DNA from: a virus
Direction: 5' to 3' (one strand)
DNA length: 9,409 nucleotides
UHGV virus genome: UHGV-0216968
This document shows, piece by piece, positions 340 to 7,960 of this stretch. Position 1 is the first letter of the stretch. Every line of letters begins with the position of its first letter. The notes below the pieces were generated by a model that was not told the DNA's origin, searched no databases, and was given only the letters and a program-made list of their open reading frames with translations. A program made the translations under genes and the position numbers.

Positions 340-394
340 GTTGTTTTCAGTCGCCGGATTGAATCGGTAAGATAGGGTTATAACCGGATTTTTT

Positions 395-463
395 AGCTAC
401 ACGTTTAGCTATACGGTCCAGCGTGTAGCTAAAGCCGTATAGCTACGACCAGGCATATAGCTA
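395..463. repeat. five copies of the palindromic hexamer TAGCTA upstream of int
   Basis: TAGCTA at 395, 406, 426, 440 and 458. The copies are arranged as interleaved inverted repeats (TAGCTACACG / CGTGTAGCTA and TAGCTATACGG / CCGTATAGCTA), ending about 18 bp before the int start codon. Confidence 0.6.
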
Positions 464-480
464 CCGATGGGTAAAAAAAC

Positions 481-2086: not shown

Positions 2087-2122
2087 GCAGAAAGAAAAGC
2101 GTAATCAATGAGATAAAAAACA

Positions 2123-2156
2123 GTGGGTACCGTTTTAAAACGGTGGGTACTGTTTT
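2123..2156. promoter_or_regulatory. operator-like site upstream of alpA
   Basis: Direct repeat GTGGGTACCGTTTT (2123-2136) and GTGGGTACTGTTTT (2143-2156) enclosing a perfect 16-bp palindrome ACCGTTTTAAAACGGT (2129-2144), about 65 bp upstream of the alpA start. Confidence 0.4.
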
Positions 2157-2428: not shown

Positions 2429-2578
2429 TGGTGTGAGGCGTAACGCGATGAACATAACAAAAAGCGCCCCGTTGCCGGAGCGCCCTTGCGAACAATTAAC
2501 CTGCTGCGAAAAAAATGGATCAGTGCAGGGGAATTATATCAACCGTGTGGCGAAGCGCCACAATTGCCGGATAACGGG

Positions 2579-2607
2579 CAAAACAAAGGCGACCGGGGGC
2601 GGTCGCC
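2579..2607 (-). terminator. rho-independent terminator on the minus strand
   Basis: Perfect 8-bp inverted repeat GGCGACCG-ggg-CGGTCGCC (2588-2607). On the minus strand it is followed by UUUGUUUUG (plus-strand 2579-2587). Lies about 68 bp downstream of the minus-strand small ORF. Confidence 0.45.
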
Positions 2608-2674
2608 AATGGATATACACTAAACTTGAACGCATCACCAACAATGCCACATTTGCGGCTGGTGGGCAATGTGA

Positions 2675-2854
2675 TCAGTCAGATTTGGTTCGTTCCAAGG
2701 TTTGCAACGAGAGCTTTTTCCTGTGCTCTTTAAGGAATTTCTCAAGAGCAAACGAACAAGGTGCGAATCTTTCTGATTCATGTTCATGCGCTATATTTTT
2801 GCGTCGTCTCTTACGAGTTGGCGATGGTGTTTTGGTTGATTCTGTGTCGCTCAT
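2675..2854 (-). CDS. hypothetical small basic protein, 59 aa (MSDTESTKTPSPTRKRRRKNIAHEHESERFAPCSFALEKFLKEHRKKLSLQTLERTKSD)
   Basis: Hand-translated minus-strand ORF, below the size cut-off of the supplied ORF track. ATG at 2854-2852 with AGGA 7 nt upstream, TGA at 2677-2675. Sits 57 bp downstream of the RHH gene on the same strand and before a minus-strand terminator. No family recognised. Confidence 0.3.
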   Translation of the reverse strand: MSDTESTKTPSPTRKRRRKNIAHEHESERFAPCSFALEKFLKEHRKKLSLQTLERTKSD

Positions 2855-2911
2855 GGTGCTGTCCTGTAAAGCAATGCGCCTGCGTTCCTCAAACTATGGC
2901 GCTGATAGTGG

Positions 2912-3217
2912 CTATTCCTGCTCTTTGACCTTGCGTCGCTGGAGTTCTTCACGCGCGACGGTGACGAGTTGCCCGATCTCCTCGGCGGCTTTGACTCCGA
3001 TTTTTTCCACCTGCGCTAGGGCATCGAGCGAAGAAACCAGGAGGTTTTCTCCGCTTCCTTCTGCCTGGCGGCGGGCGATTTCACCGCGCATGGCGGTTAC
3101 TATGAATCCGGCGTTGCTTTCACCGTCCAGTTTTACGGATTCCATGCCTTCAATAACATCATGCGGGATCCGAGCTGTCAGTGATTGTGATTTTGCGTTT
3201 TTTGAACCTGTAGCCAT
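2912..3217 (-). CDS. ribbon-helix-helix-type DNA-binding protein, candidate island regulator, 101 aa
   Basis: ATG at 3217-3215 with GAGAGG about 7 nt upstream. The ORF-track start at 3232 is a TTG that contains this Shine-Dalgarno. N-terminal SLTARIPHDVIEGMESVKL fits the strand-helix pattern of Arc/CopG/MetJ RHH domains. Transcribed divergently from the downstream operon. Confidence 0.6.
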   Translation of the reverse strand: MATGSKNAKSQSLTARIPHDVIEGMESVKLDGESNAGFIVTAMRGEIARRQAEGSGENLLVSSLDALAQVEKIGVKAAEEIGQLVTVAREELQRRKVKEQE

Positions 3218-3238
3218 CTGTAATCCTCTCAATGAAAG

Positions 3239-3315
3239 TGTAAGACAATATACACATAAAAAGTCTTACATAAAAGCATTGACATGTAAGCCACCTATAA
3301 ATAAAGTTACTTACA
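3239..3315. promoter_or_regulatory. divergent promoter/operator region
   Basis: Rightward promoter TTGACA (3279-3284), 17 bp, TAAAGT (3302-3307). Leftward -10 candidate TATATT on the minus strand (3247-3252). Four copies of TGTAAG/CTTACA (3239-3244, 3265-3270, 3285-3290, 3310-3315) including the inverted repeat TGTAAGAC (3239-3246) / GTCTTACA (3263-3270). Hairpin CACCTTG-ttaatg-CAAGGTG at 3314-3333 in the rightward leader. Confidence 0.45.
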
Positions 3316-3413
3316 CCTTGTTAATGCAAGGTGCAGAAACGACGAAACCCCGCACTGTAGGAGCAGTAACGGGGCTTCTAACCACCAACGATAGCAAGAT
3401 TATCGAGGTAGCT

Positions 3414-3620
3414 ATGTTAAATCATACCACACACCCGCAAGGGCGGGACTCGCACAACCTGAATAAATACATCTGGCGTTTTATCGCCCTGAGCACGGCA
3501 CAACCGCGCGTGATTCACATCGTGGCCACCAGCGAACAGGAAGCCCGTCAACAATCACCGGCTGGCTGCGTGATGGTATTCGCCGCCCGTATTCGTCAGG
3601 AGGTGCACCATGTGCAATAA
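3414..3620 (+). CDS. hypothetical small protein, 68 aa
   Basis: ATG at 3414 with GAGG at 3405-3408. It is the C-terminal part of the implausible 395-aa track ORF. First gene after the rightward promoter and its stop overlaps the next start. Product unknown. Confidence 0.4.
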   Translation: MLNHTTHPQGRDSHNLNKYIWRFIALSTAQPRVIHIVATSEQEARQQSPAGCVMVFAARIRQEVHHVQ

Positions 3621-4071: not shown

Positions 4072-4371
4072 ATGAAACAGAAAATTTCTGGCTTTACTGC
4101 CAGCGGCCTCCCTCGGCCTGAAATCTGCCCCGGCGATATTTACCGGGATAAATACGGCAGCACGGTAATGATTAAAGGTGTTGCCGGACGGTGCGTTACT
4201 TACCGCCGTGAAGGTTATGAATATGACTGCGTGATGCCTGTTTATCAGTTCCGGCGTGATTTTTCTCTGGTACAGAACGCAACACGCGGTAAGCCCACCA
4301 GTTGGGAAAAAGCACGGGAAAATATTAAGAAAATAAAAAGCATGCTCAGCGCATCCAGAGGTAAAAAATGA
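4072..4371 (+). CDS. hypothetical protein, 99 aa
   Basis: ATG at 4072. Its stop overlaps the start of the replication gene (ATGA at 4368-4371). Basic C-terminus. No recognisable family. Confidence 0.5.
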   Translation: MKQKISGFTASGLPRPEICPGDIYRDKYGSTVMIKGVAGRCVTYRREGYEYDCVMPVYQFRRDFSLVQNATRGKPTSWEKARENIKKIKSMLSASRGKK

Positions 4372-5774
4372 AACTGGCACCGAACGTAAAACTGTTACCG
4401 AAAGATAAACACACTGAGGCGGTTATTTTTGCGGGTGATAATGCTCACTCCTTTGCAGAACATTACATGATTGCACAGGCCAAAAAAGCAGGCGATCCCA
4501 TCCCTCCGGTTTACCTGGGCCGTTATCAGTTAAGCGAACTGGACAATTTACAGATTGTTGATGAAGGACGATACAGAGCAAAGGTCATACGCGCCGGAAA
4601 CCTGGACGATATGCAGATGCTGACCATTGCCACCAAACTGGCGATCGCAGGTGTCCGGGAAGCGCGGTTACTTTCAGAGAATTTCGAACTACTGGAAGAC
4701 TGGAGCGAGCAACTACCGCGCCTTAAAGAAACCTGGGAACGTGGGGAAAGCCTGGTCATGAATGGTGGAAAGCGAAAAATCACACTTCCCATCTCATGGG
4801 GTTCTGAGGGATTCGACGCGCAGCAAAGCTACGTAATTAAGGGGCTTATTCCGGCTGAATCATTATGCAGCACCTACGGGGCCAGCGGCTCTTATAAATC
4901 GTTCCTGGCTATTTCCTGGTCGTGCCATGTTGCCACAGGTATGGCATGGGGAGGCCGCAGGGTCAGTAAGGGCGCGGTTATCTATATAGCTGGTGAAGGC
5001 AGCATGGGCGTAAAACGCCGCGTTAAGGCGTGGGAGATAACCCACGACAAGGTGGTTACAGATTTGTGCATCATTAACGCGCCTGTTTTCCCTGCATCGC
5101 CTGACTATGTGGAGCAGGTTATCAGAACTGCCGGACTTGTTAAGAGCAGAACGGGCGAAAATGTGCGGCTGATTGTGATAGACACGCTGGCCCGTTGCTT
5201 TGGTGGGAATGATGAAAATGATTCCCGTGATATGGGCGCATTTATCCAGGGGTGTGACGCGATAAAGCAGGCCACAGGGGCCACGGTGCTGGTGGTTCAC
5301 CATTCCGGCAAGGATGAAACAAAGGGGGCGCGTGGTTCCAGCGCATTCCGTGCCGCACTGGATGCAGAGTACCGAATCAGCCGGGAAAATTCAGACGTTA
5401 CAGCACTGGTGGCGGCGTGTACGAAGATGAAGGACGCAGAGGAGCCAAAAGAAAGCGCATACGACCTTAAAAGCGTGGAGGTGTTTACCGATACAGATGG
5501 CGAAGAGATTGTGTCCATGGTGGTGATTGACGTTCCCCGCGCCCCTGCTGAACTGGAACGCATCGAGGAGGCCGGGAACAAGACGGAAAATCACACGGCT
5601 TTATGGGGTTGTATCCGGTCACGTATACAGCATGGTGATAAATGCACGATCCCGCTGCTACGTGATGACATGAAAAAGCTGGGATATGACACAAAACACC
5701 TTAAACGATGGTTAGCCAAACTGGAAAAAGACGGCGTGATTTGCGTCGATGGGGATGATGTTCACCCACTGTAA
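4368..5774 (+). CDS. replication protein: RecA-superfamily RepA/DnaB-like ATPase, 468 aa
   Basis: ATG at 4368 with AGAGG at 4357-4361. Contains a P-loop-like YGASGSYKS, Walker B-like RLIVIDTL and a VLVVHHSGKD motif characteristic of RepA-type replicative helicases. The C-terminal ~60 aa look like a small DNA-binding domain. Iterons follow immediately downstream. Confidence 0.85.
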   Translation: MKLAPNVKLLPKDKHTEAVIFAGDNAHSFAEHYMIAQAKKAGDPIPPVYLGRYQLSELDNLQIVDEGRYRAKVIRAGNLDDMQMLTIATKLAIAGVREARLLSENFELLEDWSEQLPRLKETWERGESLVMNGGKRKITLPISWGSEGFDAQQSYVIKGLIPAESLCSTYGASGSYKSFLAISWSCHVATGMAWGGRRVSKGAVIYIAGEGSMGVKRRVKAWEITHDKVVTDLCIINAPVFPASPDYVEQVIRTAGLVKSRTGENVRLIVIDTLARCFGGNDENDSRDMGAFIQGCDAIKQATGATVLVVHHSGKDETKGARGSSAFRAALDAEYRISRENSDVTALVAACTKMKDAEEPKESAYDLKSVEVFTDTDGEEIVSMVVIDVPRAPAELERIEEAGNKTENHTALWGCIRSRIQHGDKCTIPLLRDDMKKLGYDTKHLKRWLAKLEKDGVICVDGDDVHPL

Positions 5775-5973
5775 AAAGTGGGCGTTAAAAGTGGGAATAG
5801 TGGGTAATTTAACTGGAATTTAACAAAATCGCCCACTTTCCCACATGTATACATCCCAAAAAGTGGGCACTAAAAAAATTCTTATGAAACAGTACGATAT
5901 AAAACCACAAAATCCCAGGTGGGACGAAGTGGGAAACCATGAAAAGTGGGTAGAAAAAGTGGGCACAGGTGGG
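5765..5973. repeat. iteron cluster, putative origin of replication
   Basis: At least 12 copies of GTGGG (consensus about AAGTGGG): plus-strand at 5778, 5791, 5800, 5863, 5919, 5929, 5946, 5959 and 5969, inverted at 5765-5769, 5832-5836 and 5840-5844. They flank an AT-rich stretch at about 5868-5915. Confidence 0.6.
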
Positions 5974-5976
5974 CGC

Positions 5977-6228
5977 ATGACCAGAAAAACCAGAGATAAG
6001 ACAGCACCAAAATATCGCGCATTAGACATGACAGAGCACGCCTTAAAGGTGGCAATCAGAACGATAGACCGCCACGCCGGAGAAGGATACGCGAAAGCAC
6101 ATCCCGAACTGATAAGCGCATTCATGACCACGACGGCGGCAAATTTTGCCACGCTGACAGAGCGGGAGATTGCCGAAGCGGAACAGGTAACAACAATCAA
6201 CGTTAAAACCGGAGAGGTGGAATCATGA
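5977..6228 (+). CDS. hypothetical protein, 83 aa
   Basis: ATG at 5977 preferred over the track start at 5845, because 5845-5976 is occupied by the iterons. Stop overlaps the SSB start (ATGA at 6225-6228). Confidence 0.4.
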   Translation: MTRKTRDKTAPKYRALDMTEHALKVAIRTIDRHAGEGYAKAHPELISAFMTTTAANFATLTEREIAEAEQVTTINVKTGEVES

Positions 6229-6647
6229 CAGCACAGATAGCGGCTTACGGGCGGCTGGTGGCTGACCCGCAGTTAAAGACCACCAGCAAAGGGACACAAA
6301 TGGCGATGGCGAGTATGGCGGTTCCCCTGCCGTGCAGCCAGGCAGATGACGGAACGGCGACGATGTGGTTATCTGTCCTGGCGTTTGGCAGACAGGCCGA
6401 CGCACTGGCAAAACACCACAAAGGCGAACTCCTGAGCGTGGCGGGTAACATGCAGGTGAGCCAGTGGACAGGCCAGAACGGCGAAACGCGGCAGGGCTGG
6501 CAGGTTATCGCAGACAGTGTAATCAGTGCCAGAACGGCGCGACCGGGCGGCAAAAAAGGTCAACAGGGCCAGGCCACTGACGCACTGAACAGGGCAAAAC
6601 AACAGTCAGGGAATGATGATCCGTACAGGGATGACATACCGTTTTAA
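6225..6647 (+). CDS. ssb: single-stranded DNA-binding protein, 140 aa
   Basis: GGAGAGGTGG (6211-6220) precedes the ATG at 6225. OB-fold-like N-terminal region (AYGRLVADPQLKTTSKG..., WLSVLAFGRQADAL...). Gly/Gln-rich linker and a C-terminal acidic tail DDPYRDDIPF, ending in the DDIPF-type motif that is the hallmark of bacterial and phage SSBs. Confidence 0.8.
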   Translation: MTAQIAAYGRLVADPQLKTTSKGTQMAMASMAVPLPCSQADDGTATMWLSVLAFGRQADALAKHHKGELLSVAGNMQVSQWTGQNGETRQGWQVIADSVISARTARPGGKKGQQGQATDALNRAKQQSGNDDPYRDDIPF

Positions 6648-6655
6648 GCAACGAG

Positions 6656-6687
6656 TGACAGAAGCCGGAGCAATCCGGCTTCTGTCA
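6656..6687 (+). other. very stable hairpin, possible terminator or attenuator between replication and capsid modules
   Basis: Perfect 14-bp stem TGACAGAAGCCGGA (6656-6669) / TCCGGCTTCTGTCA (6674-6687) with loop GCAA, 9 nt after the SSB stop. No U-tract follows. A second imperfect hairpin at 6717-6734 is preceded by A8 (6709-6716), so it is terminator-like on the minus strand. Confidence 0.4.
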
Positions 6688-6828
6688 GTTGAGTCCGTCA
6701 CACCACGCAAAAAAAAGGCCGGAATGTTCCGACCCCTTCATCACCAAAGAGAATAATTTATGTCTTTGAACTTGTAACGCTGCACAGAATGACACGTAAC
6801 GCCGGATAAATAAACGAAGATTGAAACT

Positions 6829-6858
6829 TTGCACACTATTGCATAGCAATGCATAAAG
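6829..6858. promoter_or_regulatory. phased TTGCA(C/T) repeats upstream of the capsid gene, candidate late promoter/activator site
   Basis: TTGCAC (6829-6834), TTGCAT (6839-6844) and ATGCAT (6849-6854) at exact 10-bp spacing, including the inverted repeat TGCAT-agca-ATGCA (6840-6853). Located about 65 bp upstream of the capsid gene start in an AT-rich intergenic region. Confidence 0.3.
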
Positions 6859-6919
6859 ATGCCGAACAAGGCTGATGATAAGATTAACGCGACACTTTTA
6901 CTAAGTATTAAGAGGTTGT

Positions 6920-7960
6920 ATGAGTGATTTATATTCGCCAGCTATGTTAATACAGGTTGTTAATGCCGAAGATATTCAATGGCAGATTAATTCTTTATTT
7001 ATAAACCTTTTTTTTAAGCGAGTCGTTACATTTGAGACGCGGGATATTGCGCTTGATATTATTGACGATCCAGACATCCCGATGGCTGCATTTTGTTCCC
7101 CTATGGTTGGTAGCAAAGTCTCACGCGATGAAGGCTACGAATCGAAAGTAATTCGTCCTGGCTACATGAAGCCAAAAAGTAGTATCGATCCAAATAAAAT
7201 AGCCGTTCGTCAACCAGGCGTATCACCGGAACAATTCAATGCATATTCATCACGCAGTTTCAAAATAAAGCGAGCGTTAGTAAGACAAGCGCAGGCAATT
7301 CGTGCGCGTATTGAGTGGCTTGCTGTTCAGGCGGTTACAACGGGGAAAAATATCATTGAAGGCGATGGAATTGAACGTTATGAACTGGACTGGAATATAA
7401 AACCACAAAATATTATCACGCAGTCCGGCGGTACGGAGTGGAGCGGTAGAGATTTATCAACATTTGATCCAAACGATGACATCGAAGAGTACGCAGAAAT
7501 CAGCGAAGGTACTACAAATATCATCGTAATGGGCCGCAACGTATGGAAAAAATACCGCGCCTTTAAAGCAGTAAAAGATTGCCTTGATACTCGACGGGGA
7601 TCTAATTCCGTTCTTGAAACGGCCCTGAAAAATCTTGGGGATTCTGTAAGCTTCAAGGGTTACGTTGGCGATGTTGCTATTGTGGTATATAGCGGACGTT
7701 ATACCGACGAGGACGGAACTGAAAGATATTTCCTTGATCCTGATTTGATGGTGCTTGGCAACACATCATTACAGGGCATCGTTGCCTACGGTGGCATTCA
7801 GGATCCTGAGTTAATCAGAATGGGGCTTACTAAAGCCGAACTTGCGCCGAAAAATTACATCGTACCAGGTGATCCGGCTATTGAGTACGTACAAACGCAC
7901 TCTGCACCACAGCCAATACCGGCCCGCATCAATCGTTTTGTTACCGTTCGCATTGGTTAA
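6920..7960 (+). CDS. major capsid protein, lambda gpE family, 346 aa
   Basis: AGAGG at 6911-6915 precedes the ATG. Blocks shared with lambda gpE as I recall it: NIITQSGGTEWSGRD, FDPNDDIEEYA, NIIVMG, FKAVKDCLDTRRGSNSVLETA, GDVAIVVYSG, MVLGNT, GDPA. Length is close to lambda E (341 aa). Confidence 0.92.
   Translation: MSDLYSPAMLIQVVNAEDIQWQINSLFINLFFKRVVTFETRDIALDIIDDPDIPMAAFCSPMVGSKVSRDEGYESKVIRPGYMKPKSSIDPNKIAVRQPGVSPEQFNAYSSRSFKIKRALVRQAQAIRARIEWLAVQAVTTGKNIIEGDGIERYELDWNIKPQNIITQSGGTEWSGRDLSTFDPNDDIEEYAEISEGTTNIIVMGRNVWKKYRAFKAVKDCLDTRRGSNSVLETALKNLGDSVSFKGYVGDVAIVVYSGRYTDEDGTERYFLDPDLMVLGNTSLQGIVAYGGIQDPELIRMGLTKAELAPKNYIVPGDPAIEYVQTHSAPQPIPARINRFVTVRIG

What the first reader, a model, noticed from the sequence alone, without database searches (positions are those of the whole stretch)
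6656..6734. Module boundary marked by a perfect 14-bp hairpin and an oppositely oriented terminator-like hairpin
A very stable hairpin without a U-tract directly follows ssb, and a second hairpin preceded by A8 would act as a terminator for minus-strand transcripts. Together they may insulate the replication operon from the capsid operon, or act as a regulated attenuator that needs an antiterminator or activator to be read through.
Basis: seen in the sequence. Interest (0 to 1): 0.35.

Follow-up and report, generated by a model that had tools for sequence, protein, structure and literature searches.

The report
Back-to-back terminator hairpins between satellite modules
The two hairpins are real and sit where the replication genes and capsid genes of an E. 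coli-type phage satellite are joined, but they look like two ordinary terminator hairpins facing each other (the first now missing its U-tract), not a regulated switch.

Summary
Both hairpins exist exactly as described. Hairpin 1 (6656-6687) is a perfect 14-bp stem with a GCAA loop, 8 nt after the ssb stop. It is the longest perfect inverted repeat in the window, and no shuffle comes near it. Hairpin 2 (6709-6734) read on the minus strand is a canonical intrinsic terminator: a 7-bp stem including one U·G pair, then U8.

The element is a Gram-negative phage-inducible chromosomal island (PICI) by gene content. In about 80% of the related copies I collected, the hairpin-1 position carries a standard rightward terminator (GCCGGA-GNAA-UCCGGC plus U6-7). 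The window's version differs by two substitutions, at 6682 and 6684. These fall exactly on the two non-Watson-Crick positions, perfecting the palindrome and breaking the U-tract. It is therefore probably a leaky terminator or a 3'-end protector.

Hairpin 2 travels with the capsid module. Relatives down to 74% capsid identity, with or without ssb upstream, keep an A-tract plus GC hairpin at the same place and polarity.

Sequence similarity among E. coli genomes breaks at the ssb stop or inside hairpin 1, so this is a true module junction.

A conserved, separate capsid promoter lies downstream, so the attenuator idea is not supported. The source of leftward transcription is unproven.

The parts
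6225..6647 (+). ssb gene, the last gene of the replication zone. Stop codon TAA at 6645-6647.
   Evidence: ORF. Pfam SSB match at 1.6e-15. Annotated as single-stranded DNA-binding protein in E. coli relatives.
6656..6687 (+). Hairpin 1 (T1). Perfect 14-bp stem with a GCAA tetraloop. The GC core GCCGGA/UCCGGC lies at 6664-6669 and 6674-6679. It is orthologous to the rightward intrinsic terminator of ssb in related islands, but the U-tract is lost here.
   Evidence: structure, energy, shuffles. (relatives). All wobble pairs among the variants are G·U on the plus strand.
6682..6684 (+). The two derived substitutions, 6682 T>C and 6684 A>G. They convert the ancestral UUUUAUCA into UUCUGUCA. Each turns a non-Watson-Crick position (G·U, C·A) into a Watson-Crick pair.
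   Evidence: The window clade differs from all other copies of this capsid module at only 5 sites right of 6681, and two of them are these. Searches show that the lowest 4 stem pairs are fully formed only in the window type.
6688..6708 (+). Spacer of 21 nt between the hairpins (GTTGAGTCCGTCACACCACGC), with more C than G. It belongs to the capsid module and is present behind a different ssb allele too.
   Evidence: L229, L187, L189; negative GC skew across 6650-6799.
6709..6734 (-). Hairpin 2 (T2), a leftward intrinsic terminator. On the minus strand it reads stem GGUCGGA (6734-6728), loop ACAU, stem UCCGGCC (6723-6717), then U8 (6716-6709).
   Evidence: Conserved position and polarity in capsid-module relatives. 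Consensus fold of 10 distant minus-strand sequences recovers only this hairpin, with 2 compensatory pairs and a U·G in 4 sequences.
6735..6868 (-). Region that a leftward transcript ending at T2 would cover. This is inferred only: the 5' end is unknown, with candidate starts near 6745, 6815 and 6868. There is no conserved ORF.
   Evidence: no conserved minus-strand ORF. (promoter-like hits on the minus strand, none better than shuffles).
6829..6862 (+). Four direct repeats at 10-bp spacing: TTGC (6829), TTGC (6839), ATGC (6849), ATGC (6859). Probably an activator-binding array of the capsid promoter.
   Evidence: the only tandem occurrence on this strand in the window. Conserved with the capsid gene in all relatives, whatever the replicase.
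6876..6884 (+). Extended -10 element TGATAAGAT of the predicted capsid-operon promoter. Close relatives have TGATAAAAT and distant ones TGATAGCAT or TGATACCAT.
   Evidence: Alignment conservation. It has no -35 match and does not stand out in the promoter scans, so it is inferred to depend on an activator.
6920..7960 (+). Major capsid protein gene (lambda gpE family), the first gene of the late zone. Shine-Dalgarno AAGAGG at 6910-6915.
   Evidence: Phage_cap_E, 2.3e-41. It is followed by a gpD-like decoration gene, an AlpA-like HTH gene and a Nu1-like gene.

Best explanation
The window is a Gram-negative PICI-type phage satellite. Positions 6656-6734 are the seam between its replication zone and its late (capsid) zone. 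Two independent RNA hairpins of the intrinsic-terminator type face each other there.

T1 (plus strand) belongs to the ssb module. In most related islands it is a standard Rho-independent terminator that ends the rightward early/replication transcript. In this lineage two adjacent substitutions (6682, 6684), both complementary to the opposite arm, made the stem a perfect 14 bp and interrupted the U-tract. This looks like a quasipalindrome correction by template switching, or selection for a longer stem.

I infer that this copy terminates poorly. It would mainly act as a very stable 3' stem that protects ssb mRNA after termination or processing further downstream. Rho acting in the untranslated, C-rich spacer is one possible source of such 3' ends.

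T2 (minus strand) belongs to the capsid module. It stops leftward transcription coming out of the AT-rich capsid regulatory region before that transcription can enter ssb and the replication origin (iterons at 5773-5970).

The capsid operon starts from its own activator-type promoter at about 6829-6884, so neither hairpin needs to be read through.

Shown: the structures, their conservation and polarity, the homology breakpoints, and the derived state of T1. Inferred: termination efficiencies, the origin of the leftward RNA, and the promoter.
For: Identity of the element:
- tRNA-Pro next to an integrase; AlpA; an Icd-like domain; DUF4222; an AAA_25 replicase.
- Iterons flanking an AT-rich stretch at 5773-5970.
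- ssb, then gpE-like capsid, gpD-like decoration, AlpA-like and Nu1-like genes.
- This matches the gene order described for EcCICFT073-type PICIs (PMC6092414, PMC10111431).

T1:
- I collected 97 T1-bearing instances in 32 variants. Of these, 76 instances (27 variants) have at least 6 T in the 8 nt after the GC core. Sixteen have TTTTATCA. Only 5 (one variant, the window type) have TTCTGTCA.
- Loops are mostly GNRA. One lineage has the compensatory stem GCCGGG/CCCGGC.
- Every wobble pair is G·U on the plus strand, which would be a mismatch on the minus strand.
- TTTTATCA occurs with four different left arms, including a different ssb allele, so it is the ancestral state.
- The window clade has 5 private substitutions right of 6681, and two of them hit exactly the two imperfect stem positions.

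T2:
- An A5-10 tract plus a GC hairpin lies 165-240 nt upstream of the capsid ATG. This holds in the 97-100%, 84% and 74-82% identity groups, with different stem sequences and with or without ssb upstream.
- Two further late-zone types have the same convergent T1/T2 pair.
- Stability is -10.3 kcal/mol plus U8 on the minus strand, against -6.6 kcal/mol and no U-run on the plus strand.
- Compensatory pairs and minus-strand U·G pairs are seen in distant relatives.

Boundary: in a 60-row spread sample of 1605 matching genomes, 14 alignments end at 6681 and 15 at 6646-6650. Only 30 genomes continue into the capsid side.
Against: - There are no transcript data. Termination at T1 and T2 is predicted, not measured.
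- No leftward promoter can be demonstrated. Position-weight scans of the minus strand give hits no better than dinucleotide shuffles, in the window and in most relatives.
- No conserved minus-strand ORF exists. What T2 terminates is therefore unknown.
- Formal covariation in T1 is nil (0 pairs changed on both sides). Its RNA-level reading rests on the U-tract, the GNRA loops and the wobble polarity.
- The variant counts come from loci fetched by two capped searches (80 loci each), so the proportions are approximate.
- A stable hairpin with two proximal U residues could still terminate partially.
Confidence: 0.7

Rival explanations
1. T2 is the terminator of a discrete small RNA gene of about 90-160 nt. 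This RNA would be transcribed leftward from the capsid regulatory region, divergent from the capsid promoter, and would regulate late genes or helper genes. This refines the best explanation rather than contradicting it.
For: - T2 has a U8 tail. Hfq-binding sRNA terminators are reported to carry 7 or more T (abstract of PMC5558911).
- T2 is conserved across five late-zone lineages although no leftward protein gene exists.
- In late-zone types X and Y a conserved block reads on the minus strand as TTGACT/TTGAGT-N17-AATTAT, placed 70-90 nt from T2.
- In the distant capsid group a hairpin with three different but complementary stems (GTTATTT/AAATAAC, CTGTCGC/GCGACAG, CTGTTAC/GTAACAG) exposes CCUCC on the minus strand.
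Against: - Promoter scores do not exceed shuffles: the best case is 16 of 200, and the window gives 96 of 200.
- The window lineage has replaced the conserved TTTATACA block that supplies the best -10 candidate in other groups.
- The consensus fold finds only the terminator.
- No Rfam family matches.
- No target was identified.
Confidence: 0.22
2. One reading: the hairpins form a regulated attenuator. Capsid genes would be expressed only when an antiterminator, for example a helper-phage Q- or N-type factor, lets the early transcript read through.
For: - T1 orthologues are genuine terminators between the early genes and the capsid genes.
- Helpers of such islands are lambdoid phages that encode antiterminators (PMC6092414, and the discussion in PMC10111431).
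Against: - This copy has no U-tract, so there is little to antiterminate.
- The commonest sister lineage has no rightward terminator after ssb.
- Distant relatives keep T2 and the promoter block with no ssb or early operon upstream.
- A conserved promoter-like block lies downstream of both hairpins.
- T2 has the wrong polarity to stop rightward transcription.
Confidence: 0.08
3. Hairpin 1 acts at the DNA level. It would be a palindromic protein-binding site or a cruciform that serves as a recombination hotspot for module exchange, rather than an RNA element.
For: - Homology breakpoints cluster inside it.
- Different ssb alleles and different late zones are joined at it.
- It is a perfect palindrome in this copy.
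Against: - Only the GC core plus a T-run is conserved. The lower stem is unpaired in 22-23 of 24 variants.
- Wobble pairs are tolerated only in the plus-strand RNA sense.
- GNRA loops and a T6-7 run are RNA terminator features.
- Short shared sequence at a terminator is enough to explain the breakpoints without any special protein.
Confidence: 0.08
4. The lengthened hairpin 1 is an RNase III-type retroregulation site, like lambda sib/tI. Read-through transcripts would form the long stem, be cleaved, and ssb mRNA would be degraded.
For: - The stem is long for a terminator: 14 bp here, and up to 18 bp with one G·U in the closest E. coli copy L001.
- It forms fully only if transcription passes 6687.
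Against: - Fourteen base pairs is shorter than typical RNase III substrates of about two helical turns (my own knowledge).
- The long stem is private to one small clade, so it is not a conserved device.
Confidence: 0.04

Closest known systems
Rho-independent (intrinsic) transcription terminators of E. coli, arranged as a convergent pair
   Same: T2 has every sequence feature: a GC-rich 7-bp stem, a 4-nt loop and U8. T1 occupies the position of, and is homologous to, canonical terminators (GC stem, GNRA loop, U6-7) in related islands.
   Different: T1 in this window has lost the U-tract and gained 6 extra stem pairs, so it fails a defining feature. T2 has no known transcript upstream of it. The two are separate one-way hairpins, not a single bidirectional terminator flanked by an A-tract and a U-tract.
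Gram-negative PICIs of the EcCICFT073 type (Fillol-Salom et al. 2018, PMC6092414; four-zone organisation in PMC10111431)
   Same: Integrase next to a tRNA, AlpA, a replicase followed by an iteron origin, unidirectional genes, and a late zone with a lambda-E-like capsid gene, a D-like decoration gene and a Nu1/TerS-related gene.
   Different: The replicase here is an AAA_25 protein rather than the primase family protein of the closest E. coli copies. I did not compare directly with EcCICFT073 itself. Helper dependence is untested. The papers I read do not describe the ssb-capsid spacer, its terminators or its promoter.
Quasipalindrome-templated mutation (intramolecular template switching that perfects imperfect inverted repeats; my own knowledge of the Ripley and Lovett work)
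   Same: There is an imperfect ancestral inverted repeat. Two substitutions 2 nt apart each become complementary to the opposite arm.
   Different: This is inferred from comparing natural variants, not observed as a mutational event. Selection for a more stable stem would give the same pattern.
Lambda CII-dependent promoters (TTGC-N6-TTGC; my own knowledge)
   Same: The neighbouring capsid promoter region carries TTGC-N6-TTGC direct repeats and lacks a -35 consensus.
   Different: Three to four repeats lie at about -62 to -32, roughly half a helical turn out of register with my recollection of lambda pRE. No CII-family gene was found on the island. This is a resemblance only.

Membership tests
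Intrinsic terminator - hairpin 1 (plus strand) | GC-rich stem-loop immediately downstream of a gene on the same strand | tested here: met
   A 14-bp stem containing 8 G-C pairs, 8 nt after the ssb stop, at -26.2 kcal/mol.
Intrinsic terminator - hairpin 1 (plus strand) | Run of U (about 5 or more in 8) directly after the stem | tested here: not met
   GUUGAGUC follows the full stem (3 U in 8). UUCUGUCA follows the GC core (4 U in 8, interrupted). Relatives have UUUUUUGU or UUUUUUAU.
Intrinsic terminator - hairpin 1 (plus strand) | Orthologous position is a terminator in related sequences | tested here: met
   Of 97 instances, 76 (27 of 32 variants) have at least 6 T in 8 after the core. Wobble pairs are G·U on the plus strand only.
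Intrinsic terminator - hairpin 2 (minus strand) | GC-rich stem-loop followed by a U-run on the transcribed strand | tested here: met
   GGUCGGA-ACAU-UCCGGCC followed by U8, at -10.3 kcal/mol.
Intrinsic terminator - hairpin 2 (minus strand) | Conserved with the same polarity in relatives | tested here: met
   An A5-10 tract precedes a GC hairpin in the 84% and most of the 74-82% capsid groups and in late-zone types X and Y. Two sequences (L009, L011) have only A2-3. There are two compensatory pairs and minus-strand U·G pairs.
Intrinsic terminator - hairpin 2 (minus strand) | A transcription unit that runs into it | tested here: inconclusive
   There is no conserved minus-strand ORF. Promoter-like hits are no better than shuffles.
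Bidirectional terminator (one hairpin flanked by an A-tract and a U-tract) | A-run 5' and U-run 3' of the same stem | tested here: not met
   T1 has neither. T2 has A8 on the 5' side but CCUUCAUC on the 3' side on the plus strand.
Gram-negative PICI | Integrase plus AlpA, a replicase with an adjacent iteron origin, unidirectional genes, and no tail or lysis genes | tested here: met
   for the window. The whole island is about 10 kb in the closest E. coli copy and has no tail or lysis genes.
Gram-negative PICI | Induction, packaging and transfer by a helper phage | not testable with these tools
   Only the Nu1-like and capsid-like genes hint at a lambdoid helper.
Hfq-type small RNA (for the region ending at hairpin 2) | Own promoter, a terminator with 7 or more U, and a conserved single-stranded seed | tested here: inconclusive
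   U8 is met. The promoter is not significant. A CU-rich motif is present but no target was found. No Rfam match.
Quasipalindrome correction | Clustered substitutions that all increase complementarity to the opposite arm of an ancestral imperfect repeat | tested here: met
   6682 T>C and 6684 A>G are the only changes in the arm, and each repairs a non-Watson-Crick position. By my rough estimate, the chance of both happening among 5 private substitutions in about 240 nt is near 1e-4.

The most novel reading that the evidence does not exclude
Hairpin 2 could be the 3' end of a previously undescribed small RNA gene that sits at the replication/late junction of Gram-negative PICIs. It would be transcribed leftward from the same TTGC-repeat region that drives the capsid operon. 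An activator bound there would then flip the region from making the small RNA to making capsid mRNA. In several lineages this RNA would expose a CCUCC-type (anti-Shine-Dalgarno-like) loop and could hold late genes, of the island or of its helper, in check.
Probability: 0.2. Interest if true: 0.6.

Novelty: new member of a known kind. Interest (0 to 1): 0.27.

Why it matters
It gives a concrete transcription map for a part of Gram-negative PICIs that the papers I read leave undescribed. The early/replication unit ends at ssb. The late capsid unit has its own activator-type promoter. A leftward terminator guards the seam.

It also shows that module exchange between these satellites happens within a few bases of a shared terminator hairpin. 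That is useful for anyone delimiting or engineering PICI modules.

The window's perfect palindrome is a neat natural example of how an imperfect terminator stem can be "corrected" at the expense of its U-tract. None of this changes how terminators are understood.

Tried and rejected
1. Known RNA families. Rfam found nothing in the window except the tRNA and a sub-threshold match of hairpin 1 to the CsrC terminator stem (15.5 bits against a cut-off of 61). It found nothing relevant in ten related loci.

2. A small protein gene ending before hairpin 2. The window's 42-aa minus-strand ORF (6741-6869) has no counterpart in the other groups, so I rejected it.

3. The TTGC repeats as replication-origin iterons. 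I rejected this. The origin is at 5773-5970, with AAAAAGTGGGC iterons around an AT-rich core. The TTGC repeats follow the capsid gene, not the replicase type.

4. A leftward sigma-70 promoter. Hand-read candidates looked attractive: TATCAT at 6880-6875, TGCAATAGT in the repeats, and TTGACT-N17-AATTAT in types X and Y. A position-weight scan with dinucleotide shuffles showed that none is significant.

5. Consensus RNA structure of the putative leftward RNA. My own RNAalifold run gave nothing because the hairpin was clipped. The tool run found only hairpin 2.

6. Formal covariation in hairpin 1. There are no double-sided changes in the MAFFT alignment. The one compensatory lineage (GCCGGG/CCCGGC) is mis-registered by a loop-length difference.

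7. Locating EcCICFT073 in the CFT073 chromosome by coordinates. Two 45-49 kb fetches returned only the lambdoid prophage at icd and flanking genes.

8. Matching the Nu1-like protein to solved Rpp structures by sequence. No PDB hit.

9. Literature. I found no paper describing terminators, small RNAs or transcript maps for this spacer.

Full report
**What is in the sequence**

Hairpin 1 has arms at 6656-6669 and 6674-6687. It is 14 of 14 complementary, with a GCAA loop. It begins 8 nt after the TAA stop (6645-6647) of a 140-aa SSB-family gene.

Hairpin 1 is the longest perfect inverted repeat in the window. Its predicted energy is -26.2 kcal/mol. In 200 shuffles the longest perfect repeat was 6-11 bp. 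The 121-nt region is about five standard deviations more stable than shuffles on either strand.

Hairpin 2 is A8 (6709-6716) followed by GGCCGGA-ATGT-TCCGACC (6717-6734).
- Read on the minus strand it is GGUCGGA-ACAU-UCCGGCC-U8, at -10.3 kcal/mol.
- On the plus strand the stem carries a C·A mismatch (-6.6 kcal/mol) and no U-run follows.

The simple terminator scan did not list hairpin 2. I attribute this to its rule of extending stems through G·T pairs into the T-run, but I did not test that.

**What the element is**

The window carries, in order:
- tRNA-Pro(GGG), then a tyrosine integrase
- an AlpA gene
- an Icd-like domain and a DUF4222 gene
- an AAA_25 replicase
- iterons (AAAAAGTGGGC) around an AT-rich core at 5773-5970
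- a small ORF and ssb
- a lambda-gpE-like capsid gene, a gpD-like decoration gene, a second AlpA-like gene and a Nu1-like gene

The closest E. coli copies are islands of about 10 kb with no tail or lysis genes.

This is the organisation described for Gram-negative phage-inducible chromosomal islands such as EcCICFT073. That island also carries a capsid and a head-decoration homologue. The organisation matches the four zones (integration, dynamic, replication, late) of Mageeney et al. (PMC6092414, PMC10111431). I did not manage to fetch EcCICFT073 itself, so the assignment rests on gene content.

**The seam is real**

A megablast of 6200-7000 against 5426 complete E. coli genomes hits 1605 genomes, but only 30 over the full length. 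In a 60-row sample spread down the ranking:
- 14 alignments end at window 6681, inside the 3' arm of hairpin 1
- 15 end at 6646-6650, the ssb stop

The downstream part (6688-7100) occurs in only 31 genomes.

Behind the same ssb end, other genomes carry a ClpP-capsid fusion module or a ProQ/FinO gene. Conversely, the same capsid module sits behind a different ssb allele, again joined at hairpin 1 (L229, L187, L189). The closest copies of the ssb-capsid junction have a different replicase from the window.

**Hairpin 1 is a decayed copy of a standard terminator**

I anchored on the ssb 3' end and collected 97 instances of the hairpin in 32 sequence variants.

| U-tract after the GC core | Instances | Variants |
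|---|---|---|
| At least 6 T in 8 (e.g. GAAGCCGGA-GCAA-UCCGGC-UUUUUUGU) | 76 | 27 |
| TTTTATCA | 16 | 4 |
| TTCTGTCA (window type) | 5 | 1 |

Other points:
- Loops are mostly GNRA (GCAA, GAAA, GUAA).
- One lineage has the compensatory stem GCCGGG/CCCGGC.
- On a 24-variant alignment the upper ten pairs are kept. The lowest four pairs are fully formed only in the window type. Every wobble is G·U in the plus-strand sense, for example G6·U29 in 22 of 24. The plus-strand RNA is therefore the relevant molecule.

TTTTATCA occurs with four different left arms, so it is the ancestral left end of this capsid module. Right of 6681, the window clade (window, L001, L007, L106) differs from all other copies at only five sites. 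Two of these, 6682 T>C and 6684 A>G, are precisely the G·U and C·A positions of the ancestral stem.

By a rough calculation the chance of that is about 1e-4. The pattern is what quasipalindrome template switching produces (my own knowledge), although selection for a longer stem would look the same.

The consequence is a stem of -26 kcal/mol instead of about -15 kcal/mol, and a U-tract cut to UUCUGUCA. I therefore expect weak termination and a role as a 3'-end protector. The C-rich, untranslated spacer that follows (negative GC skew) could support Rho-dependent ends that are trimmed back to the stem. That step is inference.

**Hairpin 2 belongs to the capsid module and points left**

I gathered 142 loci encoding relatives of the capsid protein, which gave 80 distinct upstream regions.

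- The commonest group (84% identical capsid) has no hairpin 1. It has a single hairpin 15-20 nt after the ssb stop: A5-8, then (AU)GCCGGAAAA-loop-UUUUCCGGC(AU), then GCUACAU. This shares AAAAAAGGCCGGAA with the window's hairpin 2.
- Groups at 74-82% identity (Kluyvera, Cedecea, Kosakonia, Superficieibacter and metagenomes) have no ssb upstream. Each still has a GC hairpin 165-212 nt before the capsid ATG. The stems differ (GCGGGC, GGCGGGC, GACGGG, GCAGCC, ACGGGCC). Most are preceded by A5-8, and none is followed by a T-run. L009 and L011 have only A2-3.
- Two further late-zone types (X: L019, L036; Y: L029, L049, L059) show the same arrangement: a canonical T1, then A7-8 plus a GC hairpin.

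RNAalifold on ten distant minus-strand sequences recovers only this hairpin. It has two compensatory pairs and a U·G in four sequences. In the window the internal U·G likewise works only on the minus strand. The polarity is therefore conserved and selected.

**What runs into hairpin 2 is not established**

No minus-strand ORF is conserved, and Rfam finds nothing.

By eye there are attractive leftward promoter candidates:
- TTGACT/TTGAGT-N17-AATTAT in types X and Y
- TGnAATAAT or TAAAAT next to the TTGC repeats in the other groups
- TATCAT at 6880-6875 in the window

None scores better than dinucleotide shuffles of these AT-rich spacers. The best is 16 of 200 shuffles at least as good, and the window gives 96 of 200.

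A discrete small RNA therefore remains a minority reading (about 0.2). The safer statement is that hairpin 2 stops leftward transcription, from a divergent or spurious promoter, that arises in the AT-rich capsid regulatory region (31-39% GC). It does so before that transcription enters ssb and the origin.

**The capsid operon has its own start**

All capsid-module relatives share three elements in front of the capsid gene:
- three or four TTGC(A/C) repeats at 10-bp spacing (window 6829, 6839, 6849, 6859)
- an extended -10: TGATAAGAT at 6876-6884 here, TGATAAAAT in close relatives, TGATAGCAT or TGATACCAT in distant ones
- a GAGG ribosome-binding site

This holds whatever lies upstream. There is no -35 match, so an activator is implied, and its identity is unknown. 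The TTGC-N6-TTGC unit recalls lambda CII sites, but the register differs, so I treat this as a lead only.

Together with the lack of a U-tract in hairpin 1, and the absence of any rightward terminator in the 84% group, this argues against the attenuator reading.

**Verdict**

The feature is ordinary in kind: two facing terminator-type hairpins at a mosaic junction. It has two modestly interesting twists. One is a terminator whose palindrome was perfected at the cost of its U-tract. The other is a conserved leftward terminator with no known transcript.

Noticed in passing
window 5773-5970: Probable replication origin. AAAAAGTGGGC-type iterons lie at 5773, 5786, 5858, 5942 and 5955, around an AT-rich stretch (35% GC at 5800-5899). 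It starts directly after the AAA_25 replicase gene and overlaps the start of ORF 5845-6228.
   Followed up: partly
window 6829-6884: The capsid promoter region has TTGC-N6-TTGC-N6-ATGC-N6-ATGC direct repeats and an extended -10. The motif resembles lambda CII recognition sites (my own knowledge). The window has G at 6882 (TAAGAT) where all close relatives have A (TAAAAT), which is a weaker -10.
   Followed up: partly
window 2117-2156: Two tandem 20-nt units (AAAACAGTGGGTACCGTTTT and AAAACGGTGGGTACTGTTTT), each internally palindromic, lie about 65 nt upstream of the AlpA gene (2222-2428). They are a likely operator or activator site of the alpA promoter.
   Followed up: no
window 392-464: Short tandem repeats (TTTAGCTACACG/TTTAGCTATACG at 392-415; AGCCGTATAGCTAC/AGGCATATAGCTAC at 433-464) lie between the tRNA-Pro terminator and the integrase start. 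They are possible arm-type or regulatory sites.
   Followed up: no
window 4368-5774 versus L001, L006, L007: The window's replicase is a 468-aa AAA_25 protein. The closest E. coli copies, which share the same ssb-capsid junction, carry a primase-family protein of about 600 aa. This is a second mosaic junction, upstream of ssb.
   Followed up: no
window 2433-3620: The 395-aa GTG-start ORF matches an Icd-like domain only at residues 346-389. Relatives annotate a short Icd-like gene and a minus-strand YlcI/YnfO-family gene in this region. The long ORF is therefore probably not a real gene.
   Followed up: no
L002 (E. coli O157:H7 F3113), locus 1478-14030: A related island is inserted inside a prophage terminase large-subunit gene. 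This is the helper-embedded PICI configuration described in PMC10111431.
   Followed up: no
L008, L009, L011, L214, L217, L222, L227 (about 130-160 nt upstream of the capsid ATG); L019, L036: Between hairpin 2 and the TTGC repeats lies a short hairpin with stems that differ but stay complementary. Its loop reads GGAGG(AA) on the plus strand and CCUCC on the minus strand. An IHF-like TATCAG-N4-TTA motif follows it. The window lineage lacks the hairpin and keeps only AAAGAGAA.
   Followed up: partly
L019, L036, L029, L059 (about 200-240 nt after the ssb stop): In late-zone types X and Y the late promoter looks constitutive (TTGCAA-N16-TAAAAT or TATAAT). A 30-nt palindrome follows immediately (for example ATCATGACTGGATGAACATCCAGTTATGAT), and then a 68-aa gene whose product I judged ribbon-helix-helix-like by eye only. 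This is a probable operator-repressor pair.
   Followed up: no
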